Shown here piece by piece: positions 5,854-48,599 of a stretch of 64,000 bases of DNA. The translations under genes were made by a program, and so were the position numbers. This DNA comes from an uncultured virus (IMG/VR IMGVR_UViG_3300007512_002491) (taxonomy: Duplodnaviria > Heunggongvirae > Uroviricota > Caudoviricetes). The stretch lies in the IMG/VR virus record IMGVR_UViG_3300007512_002491; one strand, given 5' to 3'. The number at the start of each line of letters is the position of its first letter. Within the stretch, counting starts at the first letter, position 1. The notes beneath the pieces were generated by a model. It ran no database searches, had not been told where the DNA came from, and saw only the letters and a list, made by a program, of their open reading frames with translations.

Positions 5854-6391
5854 GAACGATCCCAGCCATGGAAATAACATAAGCGTCTGCCATATCATAA
5901 CAGCTAGATTCTAAAACCGATTGCCCTTTTCTGGGTCCGCTTTTAAGAATTTTAACCGGCCAATCGAAAGTTTTCAGTTGAGAATCTACCCAGTCTAAAA
6001 CTTGTTCTTTAGTAGATTTTTCTGCCTTCTTTCCCCTAACAATTTTAATCCCCAACGATTTCCTAGCCGTGTTTACGTTTATGAATTCTGGAGCTACGCA
6101 AAACTCATCTTGGGCTAGATAGCTAACTACTCCATTAAATCGAGCTAGCGTTAAAAGTGTTTTTGCAGAAGAGAGCCCTGGGCGAAAAGCTTGCAAGTTT
6201 TCTTCAATACAAATTCTTTCAATTTCATAATCAATATTTAGCTGCCCAAGAAGACTTCTAACTTTTTTTGCTTTCGCAAACGAAGACTTCTCTTTTTGAA
6301 GATCGACGTATCCCATTTTTATTAATTTTCCAGAAACGTCGACCAAACACCACCCCGTGCAACTAGTTGATATGTCAAGTCCAAGTATCAT
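5843..6391 (-). CDS. RuvC-like Holliday junction resolvase (RNase H fold)
   Basis: N-terminal ILGLDISTSCTGW, central CIEE and C-terminal DMADA match the RuvC acidic catalytic pattern. Confidence 0.8.
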   Translation of the reverse strand: MILGLDISTSCTGWCLVDVSGKLIKMGYVDLQKEKSSFAKAKKVRSLLGQLNIDYEIERICIEENLQAFRPGLSSAKTLLTLARFNGVVSYLAQDEFCVAPEFINVNTARKSLGIKIVRGKKAEKSTKEQVLDWVDSQLKTFDWPVKILKSGPRKGQSVLESSCYDMADAYVISMAGIVLEQ

Positions 6392-8925
6392 TAATAATCC
6401 ATTTTAATCCTAAAAAGATATTTATCAGTTATTTTTTTAACTACTGGCTGAGAAAGCTGTGCTCTACCAACGACATTCAAGTTATTATCATGAAGCAAGA
6501 CTTCACTAATCGCAACGAATACATCCGTGTCAGTATTCGCGTAATTATCTGGTTTCATGGGATGAAACGTGGGATTTGAAGATGAGTTAATTCTTCCTAC
6601 GTTGGCGTTAATATTCACTTCTTGCGAATGGACATTTTGGTAGCCTTCTAGATTTACTTCAAATTGATCTCTTCCAAAAAATAGAATATTTGGAGATTTT
6701 ATAATAGAGATACCTTCTTCGTAAAGAACATTTCCAACTGAATTCCAAGTGGCTGGTGGAGTTGCAGAGTCAGCCCTATATAGATTTCCTCTTAGGTCAT
6801 CAACTATTCTCATCGAAACTTTTCCATTAGACCCAGTAATAGCTTTATCGAACAAAGAATAAGTTCCAGGTTTAATAGATTGACCATAGAATAAATTAGA
6901 AGAATCAAAAAATACTACTTCATCAGAAGAATTATCTCTTGTAAGCTGCAATATCTGCGGTTCGGAACGACTTGACCAATCACCAGATTCTGTCATTTGA
7001 ACTACATAAGAGCTATCAGAATCGTCTTGCATTGTGCCTGTGACCAACATAGGCATCTTATGCATATCTCTCAAAGTTATCAAAGAAAGATTAGAGAGGC
7101 CCAAATCATCAACATAAGAACTTATAAAAGATCCTGAGGCCGGTGCAGAACCCAAAATAGAAGTAACTCCATTCGGATCTGAAGCTGTCATTAAAAGATC
7201 GAAAGATGGACTAAATAACCCATTGTCGCATGGAACAATAGTAAGATTTCTTGCCCTAACATAAGAAGACTGAACGCCAAATTCGTAAAGAAGTCGATTC
7301 GCGGTCTGCCAATCTTTAGTCGTATCAGATATTTCTGAAGATGTAAGATGAAACAACCGGGGGAACGTGTGATGACGATGATCTCTAACAAAATTTTGCA
7401 AATTTATATCTTTTCCATCTACGTCAAAAGATAACCAAGTATTAAATGGCTGCTCGGTTTTTTGTTTTATAGACTGAAACGGTGTTCTCAAAACTTTTCT
7501 AGATGTGCTATCTTTAGTAAAAAATGGGGGTAAATAAAATTTAATCGACGCATCCAACACTTCTCTTGAGGGACCTTTGATGCTAGCAGTTATAATTTCG
7601 TTAGTAGTATTAACTCTATTGTATATTCTAAGATCGTGAAATTCTGCATTTAGTGGATGATTTAAAAGAGTGGCAGTTGGGTCTGATGAAAAACCAACGC
7701 CCCAATCTTGTACACCTTCTGTTGACGCTGCATTTTCGTTAAAAAACGCGCGGAGATCTGATGTCGCTCCAGAGTTCTGGCCATCGTAATAATTTCCGAT
7801 AAACAACGGATTAAACTTCGTATAAAACGGTTCGTTGAAAGAACTAGATGGGACACTAAACATAGATTTATTCTGTTCCACACCGTCTATCCAAAAAGAC
7901 CCAGTTCCCCCCTCAGCCCAGGCCGCTTTGCCCATATAGTTGATCGACACATGATGCCAGTGATTTAATTTTAAAGAATGCTCGTCTGAGACAAATATTA
8001 AATCTTGCGGGTAAGATCTAGAATTATTTTTAATGCTTAAATCTATCTCAGAAGGTTTTGTATCGGCTGACGATGATAGCTGAAGTGCCACTCGGAAAGT
8101 GTTAGGCAGCCCTTTCATGTTTAGTCCTGAGCCCGTATGGAGAGTCACAGCATAGCAGGAACTCATGTGCATAAGGGTGCCCGCTTTATATTCTAGTTCA
8201 GGACCTTCAGTGGTGTATCTAGGGTTTATATAAAAACTAATATTAAACGAACCAGTTATAGCATAAGTCCCTACGCTTGGATCGGCTGTAGTAGAAGGCG
8301 AAGGATAAATTAGCGCTCTGTTTGGAGAAACCGACGATGCTGTAAAGAAATTAATAGCATTATAGTTAGTGTAAGAAAATTGAGCTTGCGGATATTGAAC
8401 TCTGTAATATTTGAAAAGATTATTGACTACTACAGTTTTTCTAAGAGTGTCTGAAGTAAATTTATTAGTTGGTTTAAACCTTAAAATCTCTACATATTTT
8501 TTCAAGTTTGGAGACTGAACAACTTCATTTACTCCCGTGAGATAGTGAACGAATGAATCGTGTAGGGAGCCGCTAGAGACCATCGGCTGAACCGACGAAG
8601 ATGGAAAGAGAGTGGTTGATAATCCTAGATCTGATAAAAGAACTCCATGAGAGTTTCTATTTCCATCTTGCATTATCTCTTCGGCAACAGAAGCTGTAGC
8701 CCACAACACGCTTCTAAATTCGTCTAAACTGCTATCATTAAACCCAGAAGCTCCCGCAGATGAAGAATAAGTCGGGTGAGCTTGATCTTTTATAGACGTT
8801 GATCTCTCTGCATATACGAAGATAGATCCCGTAATTCCGTTAGATGATGAAGAGAACATTCTCTTCGGATGCATCTGTAGGGTTACGACATCAAAATTCT
8901 TTGCATTTAATGCTATAATTGACAT
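6391..8925 (-). CDS. Virion structural protein with a LamG/ConA-like domain and a tail-collar-like C-terminus
   Basis: LNHWHHVSINY...FWIDG...LFIGN...HDLRIYNR (LamG pattern). Its C-terminus (ISEVLLHDNNLNVVGRAQLSQPVVK) is paralogous to that of 8939..10324. Confidence 0.65.
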   Translation of the reverse strand: MSIIALNAKNFDVVTLQMHPKRMFSSSSNGITGSIFVYAERSTSIKDQAHPTYSSSAGASGFNDSSLDEFRSVLWATASVAEEIMQDGNRNSHGVLLSDLGLSTTLFPSSSVQPMVSSGSLHDSFVHYLTGVNEVVQSPNLKKYVEILRFKPTNKFTSDTLRKTVVVNNLFKYYRVQYPQAQFSYTNYNAINFFTASSVSPNRALIYPSPSTTADPSVGTYAITGSFNISFYINPRYTTEGPELEYKAGTLMHMSSCYAVTLHTGSGLNMKGLPNTFRVALQLSSSADTKPSEIDLSIKNNSRSYPQDLIFVSDEHSLKLNHWHHVSINYMGKAAWAEGGTGSFWIDGVEQNKSMFSVPSSSFNEPFYTKFNPLFIGNYYDGQNSGATSDLRAFFNENAASTEGVQDWGVGFSSDPTATLLNHPLNAEFHDLRIYNRVNTTNEIITASIKGPSREVLDASIKFYLPPFFTKDSTSRKVLRTPFQSIKQKTEQPFNTWLSFDVDGKDINLQNFVRDHRHHTFPRLFHLTSSEISDTTKDWQTANRLLYEFGVQSSYVRARNLTIVPCDNGLFSPSFDLLMTASDPNGVTSILGSAPASGSFISSYVDDLGLSNLSLITLRDMHKMPMLVTGTMQDDSDSSYVVQMTESGDWSSRSEPQILQLTRDNSSDEVVFFDSSNLFYGQSIKPGTYSLFDKAITGSNGKVSMRIVDDLRGNLYRADSATPPATWNSVGNVLYEEGISIIKSPNILFFGRDQFEVNLEGYQNVHSQEVNINANVGRINSSSNPTFHPMKPDNYANTDTDVFVAISEVLLHDNNLNVVGRAQLSQPVVKKITDKYLFRIKMDY

Positions 8926-8938
8926 TTATATCCATCGC

Positions 8939-10324
8939 TTAGAAATCCAGACGAACTCTCAAAGTAAGATCTTTTTCATCGTTCTTTTCAATTGGTCTAG
9001 ACAACTTAGCGACCGCCAATAGATTGTTAGCAGAATCATATAATCCAACAGTTGTGATATATGTAAACGTTCTCTGGTCTGTCGTGGGGTCATCTATTAC
9101 ATTAATATTTCCTGATTCGTCCGTATAACTTGGGTTAGATGAATAATTGTATTCACTTGATTTAGCACGGCAGAAATAGATGTTAGAATTAATCTTAGTG
9201 ACATTTTGAAAAGTAGCTGATGTTAAACTACCAGAACCAAATCTGCAAGTTGCAAGATGGTCTATAATGTTATCAATAGACCCAGAACATAAAAAGTCTG
9301 GCATAAAGAGAGCATTTGGATTTCCAAATCTACCATTTCCTATAACAGTTTGTCCCGGATTAATAGTTATGCCGTCGCTGGTTGTCGAGCCGGCTCGCAT
9401 AGCCGAGATAGTCCCCGACATATGCTGATCATACATGAAAATTTTACCCATATCAAGTACTGCGATTCCTTGATCATAAAACATTAATCCAACATATTCG
9501 CTAGTGTTAGAAGTGTTGACTATATAAGCTACATCTCCTCCATCTGATTTAAGCTGTCTTGTAGAAGCATTGATATCCGCATAAATAGATGATCCGCTGG
9601 TAGAAGTGCGCGAAACATTAGATCCCCAAGAGCCAGTAAACGCATCTAACCCATTAAAAATTCCAGTAGACCCTGTAAGATACCATCCGACTTTTTGAAG
9701 TGCGGTTGCTTCATCAGATCTTCTATTTGTAGAAGAGTCCCAATAGTCAAAATTATCAAAAGTGGCAGATTGAAATAATCTCATTGCAAAAGTTTCTTTT
9801 TTGATCTCATCTCGAGCAAAAAGTCTTCTGAAGTTCAAAAATAGCGCCTGCTCTATTCTATCTCCCTTTATTCCAAGTTGCGAGTTACTGCTTAAGCTGC
9901 TATCAAAGGCAGTGACTCCAGGGGCGTAAAACTGCTTGTTTGCATTTCCTAATAGAACTTGCGCATATTGACCGTAGTTTGAGAGTTTTTCTCGCATCAT
10001 CAAAGACTCGGATGGAAACATGTATTTTCCATTAGTGTCAATACCAGTTCTTACATCGGTAACCATAGAGCTTCCGCTAAATATCCCAAAAGTCATATCC
10101 ATGATCGCGTTAGAAGTCTGCAGAGAGAAATCTTGATCATACACTGTTTGAAACAAAGAAGAAGTCACCCCAGGGCCGATACCCCCCGTAACAAAAACTT
10201 GATATGCTCTTCTGGTACTAGACCCCGAGACATCTTCTTGGATGACGTCTACTAATTGAGTCAAATCGCTAGTAGACGTAGTAGAATCTCCAGCGCTGGC
10301 ATTTATGCTAGTAAAAGTTGCCAT
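8939..10324 (-). CDS. Virion structural protein with a tail-collar-like C-terminal module
   Basis: C-terminus YITTVGLYDSANNLLAVAKLSRPIEKNDEKDLTLRVRLDF. GGAG SD upstream. Confidence 0.65.
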   Translation of the reverse strand: MATFTSINASAGDSTTSTSDLTQLVDVIQEDVSGSSTRRAYQVFVTGGIGPGVTSSLFQTVYDQDFSLQTSNAIMDMTFGIFSGSSMVTDVRTGIDTNGKYMFPSESLMMREKLSNYGQYAQVLLGNANKQFYAPGVTAFDSSLSSNSQLGIKGDRIEQALFLNFRRLFARDEIKKETFAMRLFQSATFDNFDYWDSSTNRRSDEATALQKVGWYLTGSTGIFNGLDAFTGSWGSNVSRTSTSGSSIYADINASTRQLKSDGGDVAYIVNTSNTSEYVGLMFYDQGIAVLDMGKIFMYDQHMSGTISAMRAGSTTSDGITINPGQTVIGNGRFGNPNALFMPDFLCSGSIDNIIDHLATCRFGSGSLTSATFQNVTKINSNIYFCRAKSSEYNYSSNPSYTDESGNINVIDDPTTDQRTFTYITTVGLYDSANNLLAVAKLSRPIEKNDEKDLTLRVRLDF

Positions 10325-11140: not shown

Positions 11141-12910
11141 TTAAGATATAGTCCTCTGATCTTTGAATCTAATTCTTATATTTTTACTATTTTGCCTATC
11201 TAAGTTAATTATTTGCATTCTAGCGCCACCGATATCATTAGCATTAGTCCAAGGAATAAATTGACTGTCAACACCATCAGCATCTAATATTTTATAATAG
11301 TCTGGCGTAAAATATATCTTAAGATAACTATGTAAGCTGTCTTTAATTGAATCTTCTGTTAAAATACCCGGAATTAAAAAATTTGGATATGGCTTCGGAG
11401 ACCCTTTAGGAGAAATCCATGAAATATCGAGCTGGCCGTTAGTTTTATCATATTTTACTCTATATTGCGCTGAATAGTTTGAGCTCAGCATATGCGTGTC
11501 GACAGCACAAATAGCGTAAATATAATCAGATTCATTATCAAAGCCAGAATCAGTATAAGAACATATTTGGTATTCTACTTTGTTGATATATTGAGATGGA
11601 ACATTTTCAGATGGTTCTTGTTGATCTTCGGTGTAGTCAAAATCTATTTCCATTTGAAGAACGAATGGATCATCAATAGAAGACCTTCTAAAAACTTGAT
11701 ATTTTACAACGTCTAATTGAGGGTTTGCGCCTGGAGTCCAAATTATTTTTATAGTTCCATTAGAATTTCTATGAAACTCGACTCCAGATGGTGGCTCTGG
11801 TGGTATTTTTTCGACACACTCTACAACAGCTTTTGGAGCAGAGCGAGACTTAACTAAAGAATATTTTTGTGTTGTTATTGTATCCTCACCAGAAGCAGAA
11901 TATTCATTCCACCGTAGCAAATAAACCGTACTTATTTGATAACAATAAGTGGAGCCGTATTTAACTTCGTAATCTGCAACGCTGTCTAAAGCATCCGTGT
12001 TATCTCCAGTAAAAAATGCTCTGGTAATGAATTCTTCTGTAGAAGAATCTATTATTTCGCTTTTATCAACTACATACCCCATGAAAGCAATTCCTGGCAT
12101 AAAACCAGAATCTGAAGATGTAGAAGATTCTTCAGACATAACCTGCATTGTTGGCATATATTGGTCTATAGACAGCAAAGAAGAATCTTGACCTGCTCTA
12201 GCACCAGCCTGAGTGGATGCAGCAGATGATAAATCTGAATCTATTTTTCCAAACAGGGAGCTCAATGGAGCAGATTCTGAAAAGGCTAAAATATCAGATA
12301 AAAATTTATTATTAACAGCAAACGTCATCGAAAATTCACCATTTTCTTCTGTTTGAGAGTATTGAACAGCCGTTCCCAAAGATGGATCGTAATAAGAATA
12401 TTCATTCGCAGAATCTATTTGAGCTCCATTCATTAAAGCATCTACGTCAAGAACATCTTTGGTTGTAGACATCAAACTCAAAGCATCTGCCAAACCAAGA
12501 TTAGTGAATCCAGACTGGGTTGCGGCTGCTTCAATAATGGCTGCCGTAACATCTCCAGAAATTTCAGAATCTTCTAACGTAATAGTAGAAAAATTGTTTC
12601 CTTGAATTGTATGTTCAGAATTCAGTGTGTCATAGTATGTGTTTAGAATAGCTGCTTTTTCTGCAGCTTCAATGTCAATAGTTTCTACTGCCGATAACAG
12701 TGAAGCATCTACTGGAGGTGTAAGCTCTAATTGAATATATCGAGCGTAGCCATAATCTTTTTCTTCGCCATCAACTTCTTCAACTATATGCGTATTTATA
12801 GAAGTTCTTTCATTAGAAACATAAAAATTGTATATAAATTGCCCAGAAAAACTGCCTGGTTCTGGTACGTCAAAAACAAAGGCTCCGTATGATGGATAAC
12901 TAGTTGTCAT
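11141..12910 (-). CDS. Acidic putative virion protein with fibronectin type III-like domain(s)
   Basis: PPEPPSGVEF...IKIIWTP...YQVFRRS...YTDSG...YIYAICAVD...SNYS is a typical FN3 pattern. Confidence 0.6.
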   Translation of the reverse strand: MTTSYPSYGAFVFDVPEPGSFSGQFIYNFYVSNERTSINTHIVEEVDGEEKDYGYARYIQLELTPPVDASLLSAVETIDIEAAEKAAILNTYYDTLNSEHTIQGNNFSTITLEDSEISGDVTAAIIEAAATQSGFTNLGLADALSLMSTTKDVLDVDALMNGAQIDSANEYSYYDPSLGTAVQYSQTEENGEFSMTFAVNNKFLSDILAFSESAPLSSLFGKIDSDLSSAASTQAGARAGQDSSLLSIDQYMPTMQVMSEESSTSSDSGFMPGIAFMGYVVDKSEIIDSSTEEFITRAFFTGDNTDALDSVADYEVKYGSTYCYQISTVYLLRWNEYSASGEDTITTQKYSLVKSRSAPKAVVECVEKIPPEPPSGVEFHRNSNGTIKIIWTPGANPQLDVVKYQVFRRSSIDDPFVLQMEIDFDYTEDQQEPSENVPSQYINKVEYQICSYTDSGFDNESDYIYAICAVDTHMLSSNYSAQYRVKYDKTNGQLDISWISPKGSPKPYPNFLIPGILTEDSIKDSLHSYLKIYFTPDYYKILDADGVDSQFIPWTNANDIGGARMQIINLDRQNSKNIRIRFKDQRTIS

Positions 12911-15900
12911 TATGCATCGTCTCCCAACGTATTTCCGTCGTATATAATTACGGAAGCTCTAAAGAAATTAATACTATTTTCACCGTCACGAGCTTTAAAT
13001 TTTATCCCTGTGTCAATCACAGTGCCCCAGGAACTGTATTCCACGAGACCGGAGTAGCTGAAGAGCATATTATCATAAAGATTATTATAATCACTTTCTT
13101 GTACAGTGTCATCACCGTCTGCAGCTTCTTCTACTCCGGTAGTTAAAATCCAGCCCTCATCGTCTAAAGTGACGGCGGTCTCGGTTTCGCCAGTGAAGCG
13201 GTAGCCTATCAATTCTCTGACATCATCACCAGTAGTATAAGGCACCATATCATCCCATGCTGGAGATCCCGCAGTTGTGCCCACTGAGTTTTCCCAGCGT
13301 ACGCAAAAATCGTCTGGATGAAATGGGAAAAATATAACTCTATCAAATCTCTTAGCTCCGATAATTTGCTGCCGCATAGATTCCGCAGTATATAATCTTG
13401 ACCCCACAGCATTAGTGGCAGAATCTAAAATTTCATCTGAAAGATCTTCAAATCTAGTTGCTCCCAACGTTGTGCTAAATCCAGAAGCGATTGTATTGTA
13501 ATTTGAAACTGAAGTTGATAATGAGCTCATCACTTGAGAAACTGCCGATGAAACTCCAGAATTGTAGGATGAAAATTCAGATGAAAGAGCTTCAGCAAAA
13601 TTAGAAGCATAATCATTAATTCCTAGACCAAGTTCTTCTGAGGTGCTTGGGAATGTGTCTTCATTTATGCTGACACCTAAAACTATCCTATAATAATTTT
13701 CTAACAAATAGCTTCTTAGAATATGGTATGCTGATACAAGAATTCTATCATTTAAATCATCTCCATACAAATCAGATAAAGTAGCAATCCTAACGTCATC
13801 ATTCACTATTATTTGAGTCGATTCCCCTTCGCCTTCTTGTACGCTTAATTCTGCTTTTAAGAATTTCATATTATCTCTTATATCGCTAATCGATCCATAA
13901 GACAATATATCTTCAATAGTTAAGTCTTCAAAACTTTCAGTAACAACGAACAAATTGGCATTAAAAGGTATGCAAATGGGCTCTAGTGACACTTGAGGGT
14001 ATTCAAAATTGTAACCTGTAATTCCTATCCACATGTTTTGTGGGATATATCTAGAGCCACCCAGGGTATTACTAGCACTTGAGGAATCATCAAACTCTTC
14101 TACGCCGGTAGCAGGTATACCAAAACACAACGTTCTCAAACCCTCTTTTGACATATCACGGGTGTCAAACATTAAATTAATTGCCGCCATTAATTTAGAG
14201 TCTATGGTCTCTTGTGCTGGTATCAATCCACTGCTGCTATCTCCTTTCTGACGATAAAAAGATAAATATTTCAAAGCCATCTGCTGATCTGTTAAATTCT
14301 GCAATATATCGGCACCAGCTTCGCCTGACTCTATAAGATCACTAATATATTCAACCACCGGCTCGAGGTTCTTCGCATCGCCGTCTCTGTTAAAAGCTTT
14401 AATAGCGGTGCCAGAATAATCTTCGATTCTTTCGCCGAACTTATCAAACAAATTAAAAGCTATAGCTTTAAAATATGGTTCTCTACAGGATAAAATCAAA
14501 CCTCTCCAAAGCTTATTTATATAATTATTTATGTATCGGAGATGGCCGTTGGTGACTGTGCCACCAAATCGAGCATCACCCCCATTACCTGTTTGACCCA
14601 GGCCACCGACGCCAGCATAACCGGTCGGCCCGGTGCCTCCAGAGTTTAAATAAGGGGTGTAGCCTGTTAAAGATAACATTGGGGCTACACCCAATAATAT
14701 CCCGTCATCTCCAAAACTATATATCCCCGAACTGTTTTCAACCAATCCACCCATCATTCGTTGTAGAACACTATCAGATGAAGTATAAGAGAGCGCACCA
14801 GTATCAGCAGGAGTTATTTCTAACTCTAGTAGCTTTTCAATAATAGTGGGAATCGCAGCTATATACCATGGCACCCAAAAAGCGCGAGGCGTCATACCGG
14901 TATCTCCAGATGAGATGATGTCTCCCCATGCATCGACGTTTTCGTCGTCGCTATTATAATAGCCTCCCTTTATCCACCTAGCTCTTCCGGTGAAGTCTGT
15001 GAGATCGTTTACTTCCGAATCCGCGAATGAATCTAAACTCGTGTTTCCTGTCAAGGCAAAAAGCACAGAAAAATCTATTAATGAAATATCCTGGTCGTCG
15101 TGATTCGAAGTAGAATCCCAATAAATAATATCATCGGCTTCAAGAATTTCTGGAAAAGTAACGCGGTTCCATATAACCTCTTCGCCAACAAAATTTGATC
15201 TAATCGTGTCACCCGTACGGCTTCGTTCGCCGCTGATGGCGGTACCCACGCCCTCGCCTATCTTATTCGAGTCAGTCTGTTCCATACCATACCAGCTAGT
15301 TGTCACATTTTGCATATCGACTGCAAGATGTGTCGCGGTATCGTCGTTCTGTCTCAGGTTCATTTCAATCCATTGCTCAACGAGGTGGTCAGTGTATTTC
15401 AACAACTTGTCATTGTCGAGTGCATCATCGTGGTGGGAATTGTAATAGGGGTACAGCATCCTGGGATAAACGGGCGCGCCGACTTTTTCTCGAGTTTCTC
15501 CAGATGCAACAGCATCTCCGTCTACCATGTTGTGATAATTTCCGAGTATTGGAAAACGCGTATAGGCATTTGAGGTACCAACCCCTTCCCATTGTATATA
15601 AGCAACATGAAAAAATGGATAAGTCTGCTTCATTATCATTGCCATATTATCAATAATATGGCCGAATATTTCTGCTAATGGTTTTCCAGTAGCAGCTAAA
15701 GTACCATCATCATTACAAAAGTTCTCGTGGATAGATCTCATTGTTGGTACCCAGTATCTAAACCCAATCCCAGTAGAATAATCTTGATCGTGCGCCTCAG
15801 CCTGCCAGAAACACTCGCTGGCTGGAAAATCTTCACAATCCGTTTCGCCAACTCGTTCTAAGTTGTCCATTATTATATCTGCATATCCACCCGAGTCTGT

Positions 15901-40970: not shown

Positions 40971-43573
40971 TTTTTATAACCTCCATAAGCTATAGAATCA
41001 TATCCAAATGGAGTGTTTTCATAAACTATGCCTCTTGGTGTAGATCTCTCTGTGTCAGAAAATGGGTCCATCGGTCGACGATTGGACGTGAACCGTTGTA
41101 TTCTTTGATTGTACCCTCGCTGATCCCAGACGGCTGGGGTCCCAGGATGCCCTGTAGAACCAAACCTGATGATAGCACCATCTGAAGCGCGCGCTACGCC
41201 AGCTTCATCTGGAATAGCCCCGGCATATTTATCGGTGCGGATCGTCGCAACGGAACTAGATACTGCTAATATCACTTGAAGTTCTCTATCACTAGTTCTA
41301 AGAAGCGTTTCGTAATTTTCAACATTTGTTTCAATTTCTATAAATGGGTCTGGATTTTCAGACAAGTCTAACAAATTAAGGTAAATAGAGTAGTCATTAT
41401 AAGATCCGCCTGTAGATTCTCGACATGGTATGCTAGACCAAGACCATTGATCGAATCCTTGGACGACTTCATTAAAGTCTCTAAGGGTGAAACTACTCGG
41501 CCAAGAAACAGGGGTAGATGTGCCTGAAGATACAGACCCAGAAATTGCATTTATAATTACTGTTGGTGGATTTTCGGCACAAGAAGCAGAAAGATACGAT
41601 CCCATAGTTCCCGAATTAATAGCAAAAGTAATTTCGCGAGCGATATCAATTTTTGCTTTCGGTCGAATACTAAATTGGCCCAGCGAATAGTCTGGGTCTG
41701 TGGTGGCGTCTATATGCGGTGTTATACTGCCCATCAGGCTAAATGAGTAACTTCCGCCAGCACCGCTTATTCGTTCTAGATGAATAGCCGAGACTTCTTC
41801 GAGAATTGGATCGTAAGTCAACATATCGCCAGTGTCGGGATCCCTAAACGTGTTAGTTATCGTCATCCTGTACTGCTTAGGAATAGACTCAACATATTTT
41901 TCTACCGGGAACGAAAGACCGTATATGTTTGCCCCCTTGTCTATAAATTCAAAAGGAGTAATTTTTATATCGTTTACTATATCATAATTTTCGCTTATTG
42001 GAACTGTCAAACCTAAATGAGTAAGCTGTCTTTCTGTAGAGCTTACTGACCCTTTAAGAGTGTTTGAAATTGGATCATAGAAATCGCCAACAAAAGTATG
42101 CAGGCCCGTTATTTCTTTTCTTATGTCCAAAGGCTCTATTATTCCATTCCAATAGAATTTATTTTTTATATCATATCGACTGCCCGGTATTTGAGCTATA
42201 TCATAATCGTAATGAAAGAATTTTAATCCCTCTGTATAAAAATAAGATGGTGAACCTTCGGTGCCATAGTTTAACTCTGCGCCAGAAATAAATTGACTGA
42301 CAAGATAAAGTTTTCCAGGATGCTCTACATTTACTGCTTTATTAAATTTCGTCCTCAGGAAAGCTTCCTTCTCGGCAAAGGGATGTTTAGAGCTAGCTAC
42401 CCCAGCAGAATAATTGTCCGATTTTTTAGCGAACATTTGAGAAGCTCTTACAGAAACAGCGCCCTTTTCAGATCCAGATCCCACACTCGTAAATAAGCCT
42501 CCTCCGTCCGACAAACCACGGCCGAGGAGAGAAACTTTTTCTACGAATGGTTCATAAGTTTCTGGTTGATCGTACCCAAAATTTGCAATTTCTAAATTAT
42601 ACTGTGGCAAAAAGGTTAGAGAGCCTTCAGTTTCTGAAAAGGAAGCGATCCCTACTTCGGAGGCAAATGATGCTTCGGCCGTGCCAGCAGGTACAGAAGT
42701 TACTCTTATTGCATCTTCTGGAAAAGAAGAAGTAATGCCAATTGTAATGCTGCCTGATGCTGCGGATACTCTTACTACATTTCTTAAGCCGTTTGGTGCA
42801 TATTCAACATTTAAAGGTAATCCAGACCAGCGACTGGCCATTTCGAAAACCGGACCATTATTCCATCCACTAGAATAGCCTGGTATACCATAGCCATCCC
42901 TGCCATAATACACGGCTCCCGACAGCACAGTCCATAAATCTTGCGCCACATGTTGTGAGCCTGTAACTGTTGTTCCATCACTTCCAGTTATGCAAAATAC
43001 CGGTGTTCCTATGGTGTACCTATGTGCATCACCGAACCCCGCGTCCGTCCCAGTTTCGCTTCCATACACCCCAAACATGCCGTCATTAACTGTATATGCA
43101 CTAGAGTCATTAGTCCATCTTTGTACTCCATCGATTTCTGTTCCACCAGATCCAGTTCCGTGAGTCATTTCTTCTGCTCCACCAGAAGAAAGATTTGAAT
43201 TATCCCAAACCTGAATTTCAATAAATGGAGAGCCGGTCTGCGTCCATGAAGCGGTTAATACTTCGATCGTGACATAAGAATTAGTTGCTGGGCCCGAGCC
43301 TTTTTCTACAGTAACTCCCTGTTGCGAATAGAGAGAATCATCGAAATACCCAGGCATAGATTGGTTTATTATCTTGTAACCAGAGCCTCCAGCGGGTAAA
43401 TTATGGCCTCTAGTAGAACTTGAAACCACTGTCTTGAGAGACACTATTTTAGATCTAGAGTTTCTACCCACGGTCCCGATGAGTCGTTGAGAGAAAATGT
43501 TAAAAGTCTTTACATTTAATCCTTGGACGAATGGGTAAGACGCTGTTAGTGGCGGATATACAGTACTAGCCAT
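40967..43573 (-). CDS. Large hypothetical virion protein (868 aa)
   Basis: Long ORF coupled to both neighbours, S/T/G-rich, no recognisable family motif. Confidence 0.55.
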   Translation of the reverse strand: MASTVYPPLTASYPFVQGLNVKTFNIFSQRLIGTVGRNSRSKIVSLKTVVSSSTRGHNLPAGGSGYKIINQSMPGYFDDSLYSQQGVTVEKGSGPATNSYVTIEVLTASWTQTGSPFIEIQVWDNSNLSSGGAEEMTHGTGSGGTEIDGVQRWTNDSSAYTVNDGMFGVYGSETGTDAGFGDAHRYTIGTPVFCITGSDGTTVTGSQHVAQDLWTVLSGAVYYGRDGYGIPGYSSGWNNGPVFEMASRWSGLPLNVEYAPNGLRNVVRVSAASGSITIGITSSFPEDAIRVTSVPAGTAEASFASEVGIASFSETEGSLTFLPQYNLEIANFGYDQPETYEPFVEKVSLLGRGLSDGGGLFTSVGSGSEKGAVSVRASQMFAKKSDNYSAGVASSKHPFAEKEAFLRTKFNKAVNVEHPGKLYLVSQFISGAELNYGTEGSPSYFYTEGLKFFHYDYDIAQIPGSRYDIKNKFYWNGIIEPLDIRKEITGLHTFVGDFYDPISNTLKGSVSSTERQLTHLGLTVPISENYDIVNDIKITPFEFIDKGANIYGLSFPVEKYVESIPKQYRMTITNTFRDPDTGDMLTYDPILEEVSAIHLERISGAGGSYSFSLMGSITPHIDATTDPDYSLGQFSIRPKAKIDIAREITFAINSGTMGSYLSASCAENPPTVIINAISGSVSSGTSTPVSWPSSFTLRDFNEVVQGFDQWSWSSIPCRESTGGSYNDYSIYLNLLDLSENPDPFIEIETNVENYETLLRTSDRELQVILAVSSSVATIRTDKYAGAIPDEAGVARASDGAIIRFGSTGHPGTPAVWDQRGYNQRIQRFTSNRRPMDPFSDTERSTPRGIVYENTPFGYDSIAYGGYKK

Positions 43574-46500
43574 TACATCTTCCTCAAGTTTATCACAATT
43601 TGTCTAAGCAGCAAATCAGTCTGTAGCTGTCTTCTATCTTCTTCTCCGAGATATACGGCAGCTTGAGATGCATAGCACATCTTATTTCTTTCTAGCATAT
43701 GAGACTCTATTACAAAGTTAATGCCGAGGAAATTAGTGTGGCGTGGTACTAGCCTTTCAATCATGATTGAAAGAGAATCATCAAACCATTTAAAGAATTC
43801 AAACAGTTGTTTGAAACTCATTTTTTTATCTAGCCTATTAAAATATATCCTTCGCATTTTTTCTAACTCGGGATAAGATACAGCAAACTGAAGCTCTGGA
43901 CTTCCGATAGCATTATTAAAAAAGTCTAATGAAGACATAATGAGAACAATGTCTTCATTTAAAGCTCGAACAGCGGAAACTTCAATACTAAACCTGGTAT
44001 CGTCGAATGCCGCGTTCTCAGCTCTGACTTTACTCACAGGAGCTTTCATGGCGTTAAACTGCTCTATGTTTATGTCTTTCTTAAAGCCTTGGACTCTTAT
44101 CTTGTTTTCTGCAGATCTTTCGTCCCACTTAGGGTCTAAAGTTGAAAATTGAAAATATCTCGGATGAATCACTCTAACAGAAGGCTCAAACTGTGTTCCT
44201 GAGAGGTGCATCTTGTTTTGGCTAAAATCAAAAATAGCAATTTCTCCAGTCGGTCCTGATCTCGTAACTATTTGATCGATGCCCGCATCTATTCTTAACC
44301 TTTCAAATGCACCCGAAACCACTGTATCAAAGTTGAAATTTACTAATGGATTTTCGACGCCCAAAGACTTAAAGTTTCTTAAGTGCTCTTTTGTTTCGTT
44401 GTGCGTCAAAGCTTTAGTCCAAAACCTTATTCTTGCCGTTTCACCAGCAGTAACTGAAGTTCTTGCTAGATTGTTACCAACTTTTGAAGTTGAATTTAGA
44501 AATCTATCGCCAGAAGTATTGCTAAAAGAAGAAGAGCCAACTACGAAAAAACATCCAGAAGAATTATAATCTTCTGAGTATGTGCTAAAAACATCATGGA
44601 TTGGCGCATCAGCTTTCCAATATGAAGATGTGTAATGATATTCTTCTATCGTTCCGCCACTCTGTCTACCAGCCCTAACAAAATAAGAAGCGGAAGTATA
44701 TGAACCAGTAGAAGTTCCTATATCTCTTCCTGCTGAAACATGCCACTTGTTTCCATCAAATAAATTAACTCCGTGAACGTATAAGTGAAGTAATGGAGAA
44801 TCTGCATTTCTTCCTGAGCGAACAAATAAATTTATTGACCCTGATTCATAAAGACCAGATCCAGTACCACAAGCCACTAAATTCATGATACAGCCCTCGT
44901 TTGCAGTAGAGACATGAGCTCCGGTTGTATACATTCTCATCAAGCTTTGAGTGGGCGGTGTTGTAGATCTATTTAAGTTAGAAAATGAATATATTCCTTC
45001 ATAAGTCCAAGACGCAGTAGTAAACAATCCATCACTTCTAGCGTTAGAAACTCCGTGGATTCCATAAGTTTTAATATCTGCGGCTGTTTTCATGAACGTC
45101 CCTTGCGGAGTTGGCCAGCCAACAGTATTTCTCGAACCGCTCAAAAATGGAGATTTAATAGAAGAAAAAGATCCAGTTAAACTGAGCATCTTTGAGACTT
45201 GCGTTAATTTTCTTCTAGAGTCAGCGGTAGTTACAGTCTTAGATCCTCCGAACTCCCTAAATCTAAAATTACTTTCTGGATTTATGCCAGAAGCACGCAT
45301 CAAGGCTTTTATACCATGCATTGTCCCCTTGGATCTAATAACGTGATTGAGGTTTGTGAGCATCCTACGCCATATTTCATCCTGAATTCTTCTCAGTGTT
45401 TTTTGAGAAAGAGATGGCTCATAATTAAGATTTTTACCAAAGTGAAACTGAGCTATATTAGCATTGGCAAAATTAGTAGGAAGATCGAACCCATAATGGT
45501 TAGCAAAAAACAGCAACATTTGATCTGAAATTGTGCCTTCGCTATCGTAATCCATTTTAAGCAAGTCACCAAATTGATCTATATAAACTTTTATTTCATC
45601 GAAAAATTTTGCCCAAGTAAAAAGTAAAGATGCAATAATTTGCGGTGATCCCATCTTGCCGCCACCTGGAAAATCTTTCGTATAAGAATATGCGTCGCCT
45701 CTACCAGCATATTCGTCATCGTAGCCTTCTGTTGTTGAAGCTTCTAATAAATAATGTGCTGGTATTAACTTAGTGATTAAGTTTGGGTTATTAGCATCAT
45801 ATAAACTTGCAGAATATAATAAGTCAACATTAAGAGCTACGACATCGGGTTGTGCCGGGAATAAAACTGGGTTTTTTGACTCGTATTCGTATAATACAGG
45901 CCGAGTTAGATCACGTAAGTCCCGAAGCGTATAATCAAAATTTTCTATTCTAGAATGAAGAGAATTTCCTGACGCATCGAGGACTATATTGTTGTTTGGA
46001 TAAGAACCAGTAGCTTCATTAAACTTAAAATAAGCCTTTAGCTGCGGCGATGGCTGTACGCTAGCGCTCATTTCGGTCTTAATCTGTTTTTGAGTTCTTA
46101 GCCCTTGGAATATTTTTACTTCGTCTAAGGAACCAGAAAAAGTTTGGTTTGGCCAAAAGCCGATCGAGAGATGCTTAGACCCAGAACCAATCAATAGATC
46201 GCTAGCGCCGCCCGCAAAAGATCCCATCGCTGCGGAGTTTGAAGATGAAGCTACTAAATTACCAGAAAGATATATTCTCATCTGTGGTATGTCAGTCGTA
46301 TTTCTATCATAAACACACGCGATGTGTCTCCACCCACCCCGAGGGATGCGTGCAGTAACTGTTTGAGATGTTGATCCGCTTGATATTCCGAACTTCAGCT
46401 GTGTATTCTTTAAATGGGCGCTAGGCGATAAGCCGATAGTGTATCCACCGACCGAGGCCACCCCATTGGGATCATTTATTTTTTGAAATACAACTTGCCT

Positions 46501-47064
46501 GCCATTGGCTTCATTCGGAACATGAATATAAAACTCTATTGAAAAGCTTTTTGTTCCGGGGTCTAAAACAGTTGCGGCGTCTCTTCTCGTAGAAAGCGAA
46601 GGATAAAGAATACCCGCGGTATCTTTTATTCTGATGTAGCTTCCCTCTGTTGGGGGTCCGTCATCAGACCCCGAAAAGAAAAGCCACCCCAGATGCTTTG
46701 GCCATTTATCAAATACCCATTTTTCAAATCCCGTGAGATTTTCCATAAAAAGATCAATGTCGCCCTGTTTTCCATCGAATGGAAAGTAGTTAATAACTGT
46801 ATCAAAAGTAACGTTTACTTTTGACTCGGCTGAATTAAAAAATGTGTGATTAACAAAATCAGACCAATCTAAAGGTATTTGTTGCGTGCTTTTTAAAGGT
46901 GCGCCAGGAGCATCAAACTCAAATGAATCTCCGCCAATTAAAGACCCAGATAAATCCCCAGTGTCTTTCTTTAGAACTGTTGGATCTTCTTCTGTTATTT
47001 TTGTTACAAGCCGAGGAGAAAAAAGACCTCCCCTAGTGAAAAAGCTTGTGGGGCGTTTTGCCAT
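43573..47064 (-). CDS. Baseplate wedge-associated protein (gp7 / P2 gpI-like segment) with LamG domains
   Basis: LLFFANHYGFDL...EIWRRMLTNLNHVIRSKGTMHGIKALM resembles the KGT motif of wedge proteins. LamG motifs WRHIACVYD, FSGSLDEVKIF and KWHVSAGR. Confidence 0.6.
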   Translation of the reverse strand: MAKRPTSFFTRGGLFSPRLVTKITEEDPTVLKKDTGDLSGSLIGGDSFEFDAPGAPLKSTQQIPLDWSDFVNHTFFNSAESKVNVTFDTVINYFPFDGKQGDIDLFMENLTGFEKWVFDKWPKHLGWLFFSGSDDGPPTEGSYIRIKDTAGILYPSLSTRRDAATVLDPGTKSFSIEFYIHVPNEANGRQVVFQKINDPNGVASVGGYTIGLSPSAHLKNTQLKFGISSGSTSQTVTARIPRGGWRHIACVYDRNTTDIPQMRIYLSGNLVASSSNSAAMGSFAGGASDLLIGSGSKHLSIGFWPNQTFSGSLDEVKIFQGLRTQKQIKTEMSASVQPSPQLKAYFKFNEATGSYPNNNIVLDASGNSLHSRIENFDYTLRDLRDLTRPVLYEYESKNPVLFPAQPDVVALNVDLLYSASLYDANNPNLITKLIPAHYLLEASTTEGYDDEYAGRGDAYSYTKDFPGGGKMGSPQIIASLLFTWAKFFDEIKVYIDQFGDLLKMDYDSEGTISDQMLLFFANHYGFDLPTNFANANIAQFHFGKNLNYEPSLSQKTLRRIQDEIWRRMLTNLNHVIRSKGTMHGIKALMRASGINPESNFRFREFGGSKTVTTADSRRKLTQVSKMLSLTGSFSSIKSPFLSGSRNTVGWPTPQGTFMKTAADIKTYGIHGVSNARSDGLFTTASWTYEGIYSFSNLNRSTTPPTQSLMRMYTTGAHVSTANEGCIMNLVACGTGSGLYESGSINLFVRSGRNADSPLLHLYVHGVNLFDGNKWHVSAGRDIGTSTGSYTSASYFVRAGRQSGGTIEEYHYTSSYWKADAPIHDVFSTYSEDYNSSGCFFVVGSSSFSNTSGDRFLNSTSKVGNNLARTSVTAGETARIRFWTKALTHNETKEHLRNFKSLGVENPLVNFNFDTVVSGAFERLRIDAGIDQIVTRSGPTGEIAIFDFSQNKMHLSGTQFEPSVRVIHPRYFQFSTLDPKWDERSAENKIRVQGFKKDINIEQFNAMKAPVSKVRAENAAFDDTRFSIEVSAVRALNEDIVLIMSSLDFFNNAIGSPELQFAVSYPELEKMRRIYFNRLDKKMSFKQLFEFFKWFDDSLSIMIERLVPRHTNFLGINFVIESHMLERNKMCYASQAAVYLGEEDRRQLQTDLLLRQIVINLRKM

Positions 47065-48599
47065 TAGTTCACCTTAAAGCTTGGGCTCGCTGCTTCATAT
47101 ATTCTATTTTGATCAAAGTCTTTTACTAACAAATCTATTACGTATACATGGCCGCGTGGGAGCGATTCACAACGGAGCTCAAAACTTAATCCTCCGCTAT
47201 TAGAAGAAAGTTTAGTGCCTCCGGTAGATGAATCAAAAGGAATAACTGTTTTACCAGTACTCTGATTTCTTATCCTATAATAAACTTGCGATAAAATTAT
47301 ACTCTTTCTAGAATACGGAAGTTTACTAGCTTTATCTTTTATTTCAAAATTTCTTATAAAAATATTGAGCTTAGCTACATCTAAAGAGTTATAAGATTTT
47401 TCCATATTGGTAAAGTGGAAAAATAAATCAGCTGGAGCATAATTGTAAGATGTTCTATAGGGTAGCTTTACTTCTAAGCTGCCTGTATAATACCCAACTG
47501 TTCCGTCTATCGATGTCCAATATTCGTCAAATTCAACAGAGCCGCTCTTGTACGCGAGGTCTAATAATCTTTGAGTAGTGTTAACTTTTGTAGCTTCGTT
47601 TAAAGAAACAGCGAAAGAAGCAGAATATAAACCCTTAGCTCCAGTGCTAGAAGTGCCATCTGTATGTTGAGATCCGGTAAAATAAAGAGCTAGATCTTGT
47701 TTTTCTAACCTAAGCATTATGCAGTTATTGCCAGAAAGCTCGGAAGCAGCAGTTCCAGATAAGATATTAGCAGGAGTTCCCCGGTGAAAATTATTTAAAA
47801 ATATAGATCCACTCACGTCAAAAATAAAGTCTTCGTGGTGGTCGATAATACTGTCATCATAGCTAATATGAAGCTGTGGAGCTTTAAATGGATCTGACAC
47901 GTGTCTTGATCCAAACCTCTTAACAAATCTAGTTTTCGTATCCGTTTCTTGAGAGCCACTAAAAGAAATCCTGAGCCCCATATTCGGTATTTGATCGCTC
48001 AATACACCAGAAACTATAGTAGTAATATCAATATCTAAATCTTCGCTGCCTTTTTTGAAAAGCTGAACTTTTCCAAGGTCTACTACTCCAGAGCCCAAAG
48101 ACCCAGAAGAAATATAGTCTATATCAGTAGATCCAAGTAGGCCACCGTGGTTAGCGCCCGTAACTTCCCAAACATTGGCTGAGCTATTAGAATAAGAGGC
48201 GGTTATCCAATTAGCAACATCTATGTCTTGAAATGCTGCTACATCTCTTCCGACACCCTCGTCGAAAGATTTTGAAAGTGGATACACTATCGCTTTAAAG
48301 TTTTTTGGCACCCCTTGTCCAGCGTAAACGTCGAACAGTCTAAGTCTAGCCCTAAATGTATTAGAATTTACGTCTAATTTAGAAGCTGTCAAGCTTTGAA
48401 TGGTGTCGAAATTAAACTTTAAAAGAATTCTAGAAAGCTCAATAGGGTAATTTGATCCAGAAAGAGAAGACTCGTTGTATAGCTTAAAAAGGTCTAAGGT
48501 TCCGGCTCTTCCAACATTCGCATCAGTAGCTCTAAACTTATTGTCTATTATTTTATTAGTAATATAAGTGCTTTTGCTAGCTGTCAAAATTAAATACAT
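47064..48599 (-). CDS. Virion protein with a DNRLRE/CBM96-like domain
   Basis: ASKSTYI...SRILLKFNF...ARLRLF...VYPLSKSFDEG...NMGLRI...PQLHISY pattern. Confidence 0.55.
   Translation of the reverse strand: MYLILTASKSTYITNKIIDNKFRATDANVGRAGTLDLFKLYNESSLSGSNYPIELSRILLKFNFDTIQSLTASKLDVNSNTFRARLRLFDVYAGQGVPKNFKAIVYPLSKSFDEGVGRDVAAFQDIDVANWITASYSNSSANVWEVTGANHGGLLGSTDIDYISSGSLGSGVVDLGKVQLFKKGSEDLDIDITTIVSGVLSDQIPNMGLRISFSGSQETDTKTRFVKRFGSRHVSDPFKAPQLHISYDDSIIDHHEDFIFDVSGSIFLNNFHRGTPANILSGTAASELSGNNCIMLRLEKQDLALYFTGSQHTDGTSSTGAKGLYSASFAVSLNEATKVNTTQRLLDLAYKSGSVEFDEYWTSIDGTVGYYTGSLEVKLPYRTSYNYAPADLFFHFTNMEKSYNSLDVAKLNIFIRNFEIKDKASKLPYSRKSIILSQVYYRIRNQSTGKTVIPFDSSTGGTKLSSNSGGLSFELRCESLPRGHVYVIDLLVKDFDQNRIYEAASPSFKVN

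What the first reader, a model, noticed from the sequence alone, without database searches (positions are those of the whole stretch)
6391..48599. A [S/T]-[G/A]-S tripeptide recurs across unrelated outer virion proteins: candidate sequon of a phage-encoded virion glycosylation system
Seen: SGS, TGS, TAS and SAS recur in non-homologous, non-repetitive virion proteins, often after a hydrophobic or aromatic residue. By hand I count 11 in the 511-aa DNRLRE-like protein (LTASK twice, LSGSN, ITASY, SSGSL, FSGSQ, VSGSI, FTGSQ, YSASF, KSGSV, YTGSL) and about 15 in the 1163-aa gp7-like protein. There are many more in the 6391, 8939, 23658, 26140, 28240, 35370 and 40967 products. I found none in the 615-aa gp6-like wedge and only about 4 in the very S/T-rich 1110-aa Hint protein, so composition alone does not explain it. 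Known: some viruses (chloroviruses, mimiviruses, certain mycobacteriophages) glycosylate their virions with their own glycosyltransferases. Inference: the motif is an acceptor signal for the GT4/GT2 enzymes encoded beside the late sigma factor, giving a glycan coat on fibres and baseplate, possibly carbamoylated or methylated.
Basis: partly seen in the sequence, partly recalled or inferred. Interest (0 to 1): 0.85.

Follow-up and report, generated by a model that had tools for sequence, protein, structure and literature searches.

The report
Serine motif on phage outer proteins
The outward-facing tail, baseplate and fibre proteins of this uncultured giant phage and its relatives carry the short pattern Ser/Thr-Gly/Ala-Ser several times more often than chance, always alongside a phage-only pair of sugar-adding enzymes, so it may be a sugar-attachment tag, but no chemistry shows this yet.

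Summary
[S/T]-[G/A]-S occurs 11 times in the 511-aa protein (1.6 expected) and 15 times in the 1163-aa gp7-like protein (2.9 expected), and 0 times in the gp6-like wedge. SGS and TGS rank first and second of all 8000 tripeptides in the non-repeat structural proteins. Other orders of the same residues are not enriched.

The motif is positionally conserved in 57 gp7-like and 60 p511-like orthologues. It is strong in three further lineages that carry the same virus-only GT4 pair: Flavobacterium phage immuto, Microcystis phage Mel-JY01 and Rhodothermus phage RM378. It is weaker (10 vs 4.5) in megaphage LR756508, which has only a GT4a orthologue, and absent or weak (0.7-1.6x) in five control myoviruses.

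Published nucleoside mass spectrometry of immuto DNA shows no glycosylated base (PMC10516641, passages read).

Nothing shows a glycan on these proteins. Many sites lie inside or at the ends of beta-strands, and fibre proteins of control phages also carry enriched structural tripeptides.

My odds: glycosylation sequon about 0.4, purely structural motif about 0.35. Earlier notes of this scan report similar motifs in other aquatic phages.

The parts
47064..48599 (-). 511-aa outer baseplate protein (p511), 11 motifs
   Evidence: Its family of 67 distinct orthologues has 615 vs 101 expected. AF2 model pLDDT 85, CBM/Ig-like beta-sandwiches.
43573..47064 (-). gp7-like 1163-aa protein with a LamG_3 domain, 15 motifs
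   Evidence: Orthologues carry 860 vs 196 expected in 67 loci. Eight sites are kept in at least 40 of 57 sequences.
40967..43573 (-). 868-aa structural protein, 10 motifs (3.3 expected)
35370..40970 (-). 1866-aa structural protein, 12 motifs (5.6 expected)
28240..35289 (-). 2349-aa repetitive fibre protein, 45 motifs (20.3 expected)
   Evidence: Shares repeat units with the 699-aa protein.
26140..28239 (-). 699-aa repetitive fibre protein, 17 motifs (6.2 expected)
23658..25730 (-). 690-aa Gly/Ala-rich protein, 6 motifs (2.6 expected, weak)
22048..23004 (-). 318-aa protein, 4 motifs (0.8 expected)
   Evidence: Family total 26 vs 7.1.
8939..10324 (-). 461-aa protein, 7 motifs (1.9 expected)
6391..8925 (-). 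844-aa protein with a partial LamG_3 match, 11 motifs (2.3 expected)
48607..50454 (-). gp6-like inner wedge, comparator without motifs (0 vs 1.1)
   Evidence: Family total 23 vs 72.4.
18716..22048 (-). 1110-aa Hint-domain protein, comparator not enriched (4 vs 4.2)
12910..18711 (-). 1933-aa protein, comparator not enriched (2 vs 5.2)
54703..55866 (-). GT4b glycosyltransferase; EX7E kept (E273, E281)
   Evidence: 3820 relatives found. The nearest clusters listed in the ESM Atlas are 94-100% viral.
55863..57113 (-). GT4a glycosyltransferase; overlaps GT4b by 4 bases; EX7E kept (E286, E294)
54395..54706 (-). 103-aa protein with an N-terminal membrane-like segment, kept next to GT4b
53638..54381 (-).
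57209..58030 (-). PD-(D/E)XK nuclease that precedes the GT4 pair here and in immuto and Mel-JY01
58065..58949 (-). SDR sugar-nucleotide epimerase/dehydratase
58939..59790 (-). Truncated nucleotide-sugar dehydrogenase (UGDH-like, profile positions 70-298 of 413)
59790..61427 (-). NodU/CmcH-type carbamoyltransferase
61440..62462 (-). GT2 glycosyltransferase
62527..63285 (-). Methyltransferase-like protein (all Pfam matches below cut-off)
63278..64000 (-). Second SDR dehydratase/epimerase, cut by the window end (344 aa in the contig)

Best explanation
Hydrophobic-[S/T]-[G/A]-S-hydrophobic is an acceptor tag. It is read by soluble, phage-encoded glycosyltransferases: the virus-only GT4a/GT4b pair, probably extended by the GT2 and trimmed by a methyltransferase and variable sugar-modifying enzymes. 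These would O-glycosylate a serine of outer virion proteins in the host cytoplasm, before or during assembly. The result would be a glycan coat on the baseplate periphery, the fibres and the outer domains of the sheath. Shown: the motif statistics, its conservation, its restriction to outer proteins, the presence and conservation of the enzymes, and their co-occurrence with the motif. Inferred: that the enzymes act on protein, that the motif is what they read, and which serine is modified.
For: (1) The motif is enriched in at least eight proteins of the window that share no detectable similarity with one another, and in the two tail-sheath paralogues outside it. hhalign of the p511 and gp7 families gives probability 0.5%. 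Convergence of unrelated families on one tripeptide within one lineage points to a shared factor that reads it.
(2) It is specific. The middle residue G is 3.1x and A 2.1x, while the other 18 residues are 0-1.5x. It is directional: TGS 24 against SGT 10, each with 8.1 expected.
(3) The motif's hydroxyl residues are kept in 73-75% of orthologues, against 47-52% for other S/T (p 5e-5 and 3e-3).
(4) Secondary-structure contexts are mixed: mid-strand, strand ends, a hairpin, coil and one helix.
(5) Co-occurrence with the GT4 pair. With the pair: window clade 4.5-6.1x in gp7 and p511, immuto 3.6x, Mel-JY01 4.6x, and RM378, where all 64 ORFs of 250 aa or more give 62 vs 28.6 and a contiguous block gives 27 vs 6.1. 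LR756508, with a GT4a orthologue only, gives 10 vs 4.5. Controls: T4 0.73x, VH7D 0.98x, phiMAM1 0.87x, P-HM2 1.22x, Bellamy 1.59x. T4 and P-HM2 have no GT4 match and Bellamy has one below cut-off.
(6) GT4b's nearest ESM Atlas clusters are all 94-100% viral, and its closest relatives are 54-78% identical. Both GT4s keep EX7E.
(7) All glycan enzymes lack membrane-like segments.
(8) DNA is an unlikely target. Immuto DNA gave canonical dA, dC and dT plus fdPreQ1 in place of dG (PMC10516641, passages read).
(9) Precedent recalled from my own knowledge, not from a call: the GT4 enzymes GtfA/B and SdgA/B glycosylate serines in simple motifs in the cytoplasm. Mycobacteriophage virions are glycosylated (Freeman 2023, seen only as cited in PMC12619734).
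Against: There is no chemical evidence of any glycan. In the p511 model 19 of 33 motif residues are in strands (44% of all residues, 34% of all S/T are), and the flanks are hydrophobic. Known bacterial O-glycosylation sites are mostly in flexible segments (my own knowledge). Eight sites are fixed in at least 40 of 57 gp7 orthologues, which a structural role also explains. There is no sign of selection on motif number: gp7 counts run from 5 to 23, with variance 15.9 against 6.1 expected, and there is no compensation by neighbouring sites. Control phages also show enriched tripeptides in outer proteins (T4 HSH p 3e-6; Bellamy GVG p 1e-7), which I take to be structural (my own reading, not tested). 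The lineages with the pair share ancestry, so the co-occurrence is close to one event. I did not test VH7D or phiMAM1 for GT4. A small membrane-like protein sits next to GT4b, and published opinion assigns such islands in jumbo cyanophages to host surface glycans (PMC7824862, passages read). The RM378 block was picked out by its motif counts, and its virion role is unverified (1 of 10 ORFs matches a PHROG 'virion structural protein').
Confidence: 0.4

Rival explanations
1. The motif is purely structural. Hydrophobic-[S/T]-G-[S/T]-hydrophobic would be a preferred strand-end, tight-turn or strand-kink element of the beta-sandwich and fibre domains that expanded in this phage lineage. The glycan genes would act on something else, such as host envelope glycans for superinfection exclusion.
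For: Motifs lie in or next to beta-strands: 8 of 11 in p511, and 9 of 15 at strand ends or starts in gp7, including a two-residue hairpin at 229-231. Positional conservation is strong. Two gp7 sites lie within the LamG_3 match, residues 169-329; my recollection that they coincide with conserved glycine positions of that family's consensus was not checked by any search. Control phages have their own enriched tripeptides in outer proteins. There is no count compensation. The 103-aa membrane-like protein sits beside GT4b. PMC7824862 assigns such islands to host polysaccharide.
Against: It does not explain why families without detectable similarity converge on one tripeptide in this lineage only while five other myoviruses with beta-rich outer proteins do not. 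Alanine in the middle position and occurrences in coil and helix do not fit a single turn type. The significance (SGS p 4e-11, 30 copies) exceeds that of the control motifs.
Confidence: 0.35
2. The motif is read by another factor acting on the outer virion proteins, not by the glycosyltransferases. Candidates are an assembly chaperone, or an enzyme making a different serine modification such as phosphorylation or acylation.
For: The argument for a shared reader is the same: lineage-specific convergence of unrelated families and conserved hydroxyls. Hydrophobic flanks resemble recognition of unfolded chains. Immuto is annotated with a GroEL.
Against: I identified no candidate reader or modifying enzyme. 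The only conserved lineage-specific enzymes I found that track the motif are the GT4 pair.
Confidence: 0.12
3. The glycosyltransferases modify phage DNA (glycosylated hydroxymethyl-pyrimidines) and the motif is unrelated to them.
For: The complete genome holds a very divergent thymidylate-synthase-family protein, 46.9 bits against a cut-off of 327. A nuclease gene precedes the GT4 pair. Phage GT-A and GT-B enzymes are known to glycosylate DNA (bioRxiv 10.1101/2023.12.21.572611, passages read).
Against: Immuto, which has the orthologous cassette, has canonical dC and dT and non-glycosylated fdPreQ1 (PMC10516641). The thymidylate-synthase-like gene lies about 114 kb from the GT4 pair. This reading leaves the motif unexplained.
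Confidence: 0.05
4. The enrichment is an artefact of composition, repeats or post-hoc choice of motif.
For: Two proteins are repetitive.
Against: Block shuffles still give z above 7 without the repeat proteins. SGS and TGS rank 1 and 2 of 8000. The motif defined here is enriched again in RM378, chosen only for its GT4a homologue (62 vs 28.6 over all 64 ORFs). The 76 motif instances checked use 56 different 9-base words, so there is no DNA-level word.
Confidence: 0.02

Closest known systems
Mycobacteriophage virion O-glycosylation (Che8-type; Freeman et al. 2023, seen only as cited in PMC12619734 and PMC12801897; the paper itself was not held)
   Same: Phage-encoded glycosyltransferases proposed to decorate the phage's own virion proteins.
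   Different: There, glycans sit on C-terminal tails of capsid and tail-tube subunits (as summarised in PMC12619734). Here the candidate sites are internal, short, flanked by hydrophobic residues, and lie on baseplate, fibre and sheath proteins. Nothing is chemically shown here.
GtfA/GtfB and SdgA/SdgB: cytoplasmic GT4 enzymes that O-glycosylate serine-rich repeat and Ser-Asp repeat adhesins (function recalled from my own knowledge; the family names come from NCBIfam)
   Same: Tandem GT4 genes; soluble; serine acceptors within very simple motifs (S-A-S-like, S-D).
   Different: The NCBIfam scores are far below cut-off (GtfA 29.8 vs 574.6; SdgA 21.2 vs 800). Both phage GT4s keep EX7E, so neither looks like the non-catalytic GtfB. 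The substrates here are folded beta-rich proteins, not low-complexity repeats.
Glycan or 'LPS/cell-wall modification' islands of large aquatic myophages (PMC7824862, PMC12801897; the four core glycosyltransferase groups of 'moraphages', PMC12619734)
   Same: Clusters of GT, SDR, methyltransferase and carbamoyltransferase genes in jumbo aquatic phages; a conserved GT core with variable sugar genes.
   Different: Those papers propose host-surface or DNA targets and mention virion glycosylation only as a possibility (passages read). In the passages I read, none links the island to a sequence motif in virion proteins.
Structural tripeptide motifs of phage fibres, such as His-x-His in T4 fibres (enrichment seen; the metal-binding role is recalled)
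   Same: A short motif over-represented in outer virion proteins and positionally conserved.
   Different: HSH in T4 is 4 copies in homologous fibre modules. Here there are 30 SGS and 22 TGS copies spread over eight proteins that share no detectable similarity.

Membership tests
CAZy GT4 / Pfam Glycos_transf_1 (both GT4 genes) | Pfam PF00534 match above the gathering score | tested here: met
   36.6 and 47.2 bits against a cut-off of 26.4.
CAZy GT4 / Pfam Glycos_transf_1 (both GT4 genes) | Conserved E-x7-E motif in the C-terminal domain (the motif definition is recalled) | tested here: met
   GT4a E286/E294 and GT4b E273/E281 are at least 95% conserved in 13 and 21 orthologues.
GtfA/GtfB accessory-Sec protein O-glycosyltransferase | NCBIfam TIGR02918 at or above the cut-off | tested here: not met
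   GT4b scores 29.8 bits against 574.6.
GtfA/GtfB accessory-Sec protein O-glycosylatransferase | One catalytic and one non-catalytic GT4 partner | tested here: not met
   Both keep EX7E and the basic residues. No complex prediction was run.
Mycobacteriophage-type virion glycosylation | Glycans detected on virion proteins by mass spectrometry or staining | not testable with these tools
   No proteomic data are available here.
Mycobacteriophage-type virion glycosylation | Acceptor in the C-terminal tails of capsid and tail-tube subunits | not tested
   I did not examine the C-termini. In the two capsid paralogues the motifs lie at residues 138-263, which I read as N-terminal extra domains.
   Position -1 is hydrophobic in 66% and polar or charged in 11% of 93 instances.
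Phage DNA glycosylation pathways | GT next to a thymidylate-synthase-like hydroxymethylase or a 5mC dioxygenase; glycosylated nucleosides in virion DNA | tested here: not met
   The thymidylate-synthase-like gene lies about 114 kb away in the complete genome. Immuto DNA has no glycosylated base (PMC10516641). The window phage's own DNA is not testable here.
Laminin_G_3 / ConA-like lectin domain (gp7-like protein) | Pfam PF13385 above the cut-off | tested here: met
   68.8 bits against 27.6, residues 169-329.
   No Pfam, PHROG or PDB match for the 247-aa protein. No PF04542 match in the contig. BLASTP against the annotated RM378 sigma factor gives E 0.036.

The most novel reading that the evidence does not exclude
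A virus-only pair of soluble GT4 enzymes reads hydrophobic-[S/T]-[G/A]-S on outer virion proteins. Together with a swappable set of sugar-modifying genes, it builds a strain-specific glycan coat on the baseplates, fibres and sheaths of a very abundant aquatic phage group that spans Flavobacterium, Microcystis and Rhodothermus phages. This would be the first sequon-directed virion glycosylation system in tailed phages.
Probability: 0.35. Interest if true: 0.85.

Novelty: new variant of a known kind. Interest (0 to 1): 0.66.

Why it matters
If the motif is a sugar-attachment tag, a large and abundant group of aquatic phages coats its host-recognition apparatus with its own glycans at predictable sites (GT4b alone has 3820 relatives at E 1e-5 or better). 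That would bear on host range, on protection from proteases and grazers, and on why these phages carry large variable glycan islands whose target is left open in the papers I read. Sites could then be predicted from sequence alone. Three cultured relatives (immuto, Mel-JY01, RM378) make the question directly testable by mass spectrometry. If the motif turns out to be structural, it is still an unusually strong, lineage-specific signature of outer virion proteins, useful for annotating proteins that have no family match.

Tried and rejected
- DNA-level word. The 76 motif instances checked use 56 different 9-base words. Rejected.
- Local composition. Block shuffles of 10 and 20 residues keep z above 7. 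Rejected.
- Shared hidden domain. phmmer all-against-all finds similarity only between the two repeat fibres, the two sheaths and the two capsid paralogues. hhalign of p511 against gp7 gives probability 0.5%. HMMs of eight window families find nothing in RM378 (no output rows).
- Selection on motif number, or compensation by neighbouring sites. Not seen.
- Motif preference varying by clade. Not seen.
- Weak correlation of gp7 and p511 counts across 61 genomes: rho 0.26, p 0.04; for ratios rho 0.15, p 0.26. Uninformative.
- T4 late promoter TATAAATA (recalled consensus). 3 matches against 6.7 expected, so expression timing could not be read.
- The terminator scan did not list the hairpin I saw by eye between the nuclease gene and GT4a.
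- Tandem Repeats Finder finds no DNA-level repeats in the fibre genes.
- PDB sequence search for the 247-aa protein: nothing.
- PDB sequence searches and NCBIfam for the GT4s give only generic GT4 relatives.
- Streptomyces phage Warpy has a single distant GT4. I did not pursue it.
- Literature searches for reports of such a motif or of glycosylated phage tails found none. No paper is held on Mel-JY01.
- No complex prediction and no sequencing-run look-up were run.
- Solvent exposure of the motif serines could not be computed, because the model coordinates are not returned.
Full report
**What the window is.** All genes lie on the minus strand. The window is identical to part of a 293-kb IMG/VR phage genome with terminal repeats. 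It is a distant T4-type jumbo myovirus. It has a gp23-type capsid protein (two paralogues), tail sheath (two paralogues), portal, large terminase, gp25-like and gp6-like baseplate proteins. Positions 6391-53252 hold large structural genes, most without any Pfam or PHROG match. Positions 54703-64000 hold glycan genes: two GT4s that overlap by four bases, a PD-(D/E)XK nuclease, an SDR enzyme, a truncated nucleotide-sugar dehydrogenase, a NodU-type carbamoyltransferase, a GT2, a methyltransferase-like protein and a second SDR.

Without the two internally repetitive fibre proteins, 17 structural proteins hold 89 motifs. Global shuffles give 35.8, and shuffles within 10-residue blocks give 42.6 (z 9.5 and 7.3).

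- Four other orders of the same residue classes are at expectation.
- Of all 8000 tripeptides, SGS (34 vs 10.9) and TGS (24 vs 8.1) rank first and second. SGT (10 vs 8.1) and TGT (4 vs 6.3) are not enriched, so the motif has a direction.
- Within [S/T]-x-[S/T], only G (3.1x) and A (2.1x) stand out.
- Hydrophobic residues fill position -1 in 66%, -2 in 55% and the position just after the motif in 53% of 93 instances, against a background of 32%.
- No DNA word underlies it.

**Where it is.** In the 127-kb contig the enrichment is confined to the outer structural block and the two sheath paralogues (8 vs 2.2 and 9 vs 2.4). There, 14 of the 17 sites lie before residue 650, outside the region that matches the Pfam sheath domains. 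Replication proteins, glycan enzymes, portal, gp25, gp6, the Hint protein and the 1933-aa protein are not enriched.

**Conservation.** I found gp7-like orthologues in 80 IMG/VR loci and p511-like proteins in 84.

- 67 gp7 orthologues, 57 of them distinct and 38-72% identical, hold 860 motifs against 196 expected. Every one is enriched, from 2.2x to 8.4x.
- Eight alignment columns carry the motif in at least 40 of 57 sequences, with Ser/Thr and Gly near 95% while the flanks vary.
- The p511 family (67 distinct) has 615 vs 101. gp6 has 23 vs 72, and gp25 has 6 vs 11.4.
- Motif hydroxyls are kept far better than other S/T: 0.73-0.75 against 0.47-0.52.
- SGS has the largest excess in 10 of the 11 gp7 clades.
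- Fibre-region ORFs of relatives with no match to window proteins are also enriched (70 representatives, 311 vs 144). Unmatched upstream ORFs are not (26 representatives, 12 vs 19.7).
- I found no sign of selection on motif number and no compensation between neighbouring sites.

**Structure.** The p511 model (pLDDT 85) is made of CBM-like and Ig-like beta-sandwiches. Five of its 11 motifs lie inside strands, three at strand borders and three in coil or at a helix end. The gp7 model is weaker (pLDDT 66). Its motifs sit mostly at strand ends or starts, including one two-residue hairpin; one is in a helix and several are in coil. I could not compute exposure.

**The enzymes.**

- GT4a-GT4b-s103-p247-p121-p568-...-gp25-gp6-p511-gp7 is the order in every related locus that reaches far enough. 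GT4b was seen in 41 of the 84 loci and GT4a in 25. Every locus without them ends before the place where they would lie, and no locus shows another gene there.
- Both GT4s keep E-x7-E.
- GT4b has 3820 relatives at E 1e-5 or better. The best 120 are 54-100% identical, and its nearest ESM Atlas clusters are 94-100% viral.
- Immuto and Mel-JY01 carry the orthologous cassette nuclease-GT4-GT4-(x)-GT2-methyltransferase, with different further sugar genes, away from their baseplate genes.
- No glycan enzyme has a membrane-like segment. The 103-aa protein next to GT4b does.

**Co-occurrence.**

With the pair:
- Window clade: strong enrichment, as above.
- Immuto: 98 vs 27.0 in 16 proteins. One tail spike gives 53 of these; without it, 45 vs 14.9.
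- Mel-JY01: 58 vs 12.5 in 15 proteins.
- RM378, chosen only because it holds a GT4a homologue followed by a weak GT4b-like gene: 62 vs 28.6 over all 64 ORFs of 250 aa or more. A contiguous block at 64.8-76.0 kb gives 27 vs 6.1, and TGS is its top tripeptide. That block was picked by its counts, and its virion role is unverified.

With GT4a only:
- LR756508: 10 vs 4.5 in nine ORFs.

Controls (outer proteins):
- T4 11 vs 15.0; VH7D 6 vs 6.1; phiMAM1 6 vs 6.9; P-HM2 33 vs 27.0; Bellamy 28 vs 17.7.
- T4 and P-HM2 have no GT4 match and Bellamy has one below cut-off. VH7D and phiMAM1 were not searched.

The lineages with the pair share ancestry: portal, terminase and capsid proteins are homologous. 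This is therefore not a set of independent events.

**What the enzymes do not seem to do.** Hutinet et al. (PMC10516641, passages read) digested immuto_2-6A DNA. They saw canonical dA, dC and dT plus fdPreQ1 in place of dG, so no glycosylated base. The window phage's complete genome has a very divergent thymidylate-synthase-family gene far from the cassette, so for this phage itself the DNA rival is weakened but not excluded.

**Weighing.** A lineage-specific convergence of families without detectable similarity on one directional tripeptide, with unusually conserved hydroxyls, argues for a shared reader. The only conserved, lineage-specific enzymes I found that track it are the GT4 pair. Against this:
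- The sites are embedded in strands and positionally fixed.
- Control phages show that motifs I take to be structural can be enriched in fibre proteins (T4 HSH p 3e-6, Bellamy GVG p 1e-7), though less strongly than SGS here (p 4e-11).
- No glycan has been seen.

I put the sequon reading at about 0.4, a purely structural motif at about 0.35, another reader at about 0.12, DNA as the target at about 0.05 and artefact at about 0.02.

**Literature and earlier notes.** The papers I read attribute such islands to host-surface or DNA modification, or leave the target open (PMC7824862, PMC12801897, PMC12619734; passages only). My searches found no report of a motif in virion proteins. Earlier AI notes of this scan describe similar Ser/Thr-Gly motifs and soluble glycan islands beside baseplate genes in other aquatic phages. 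They are leads, not independent evidence. They also warn that readers primed for sequons will find some enriched tripeptide, which is why I ran the unbiased ranking and the control phages.

Noticed in passing
window 58939-59790 (-): The UDP-glucose-dehydrogenase-like gene is truncated at both ends. It covers profile positions 70-298 of 413, with no first Rossmann segment and no C-terminal domain. It is wedged between the carbamoyltransferase and the SDR gene with overlapping ends. It may be a remnant or a novel minimal form.
   Followed up: partly
window 54395-54706 (-): A 103-aa protein with an N-terminal membrane-like segment (Kyte-Doolittle 19-residue mean 2.22) is conserved directly after GT4b in 44 related loci. 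It is the only membrane-like protein in the block.
   Followed up: partly
G000:C1:73506-77387 and 81117-87472 (outside the window): Both the gp23-type major capsid protein and the tail sheath are present as adjacent paralogue pairs (632/629 aa and 1054/1049 aa), each with several hundred residues outside the region that matches the Pfam core domain.
   Followed up: partly
G001 (293-kb genome) about 81-89 kb: A second glycosyltransferase cluster (two GT2 and two GT4 matches) lies about 20 kb from the one in the window. The genome has at least seven GT matches.
   Followed up: no
window 18716-22048 (-): A 1110-aa structural-block protein carries an N-terminal Hint/intein-like domain (all Pfam matches below cut-off). 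It is S/T-rich but not enriched in the motif.
   Followed up: no
window 57114-57208: A GC-rich hairpin followed by a T-run lies between the nuclease gene and GT4a. After it, the genes from GT4a to the 568-aa protein are packed with gaps of 14 bases or less. The simple terminator scan did not list it, probably because the loop is long.
   Followed up: partly
L122 (Mel-JY01 record 83441-84932): The GT4a orthologue of Microcystis phage Mel-JY01 is annotated as two adjacent ORFs and matched in two pieces. It may be split or frameshifted.
   Followed up: no
L127:1342-2187 (G001 about 225 kb): A very divergent thymidylate-synthase-family protein (281 aa, 46.9 bits against a cut-off of 327) lies next to a DnaE-like polymerase fragment. 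It may be a pyrimidine hydroxymethylase.
   Followed up: partly
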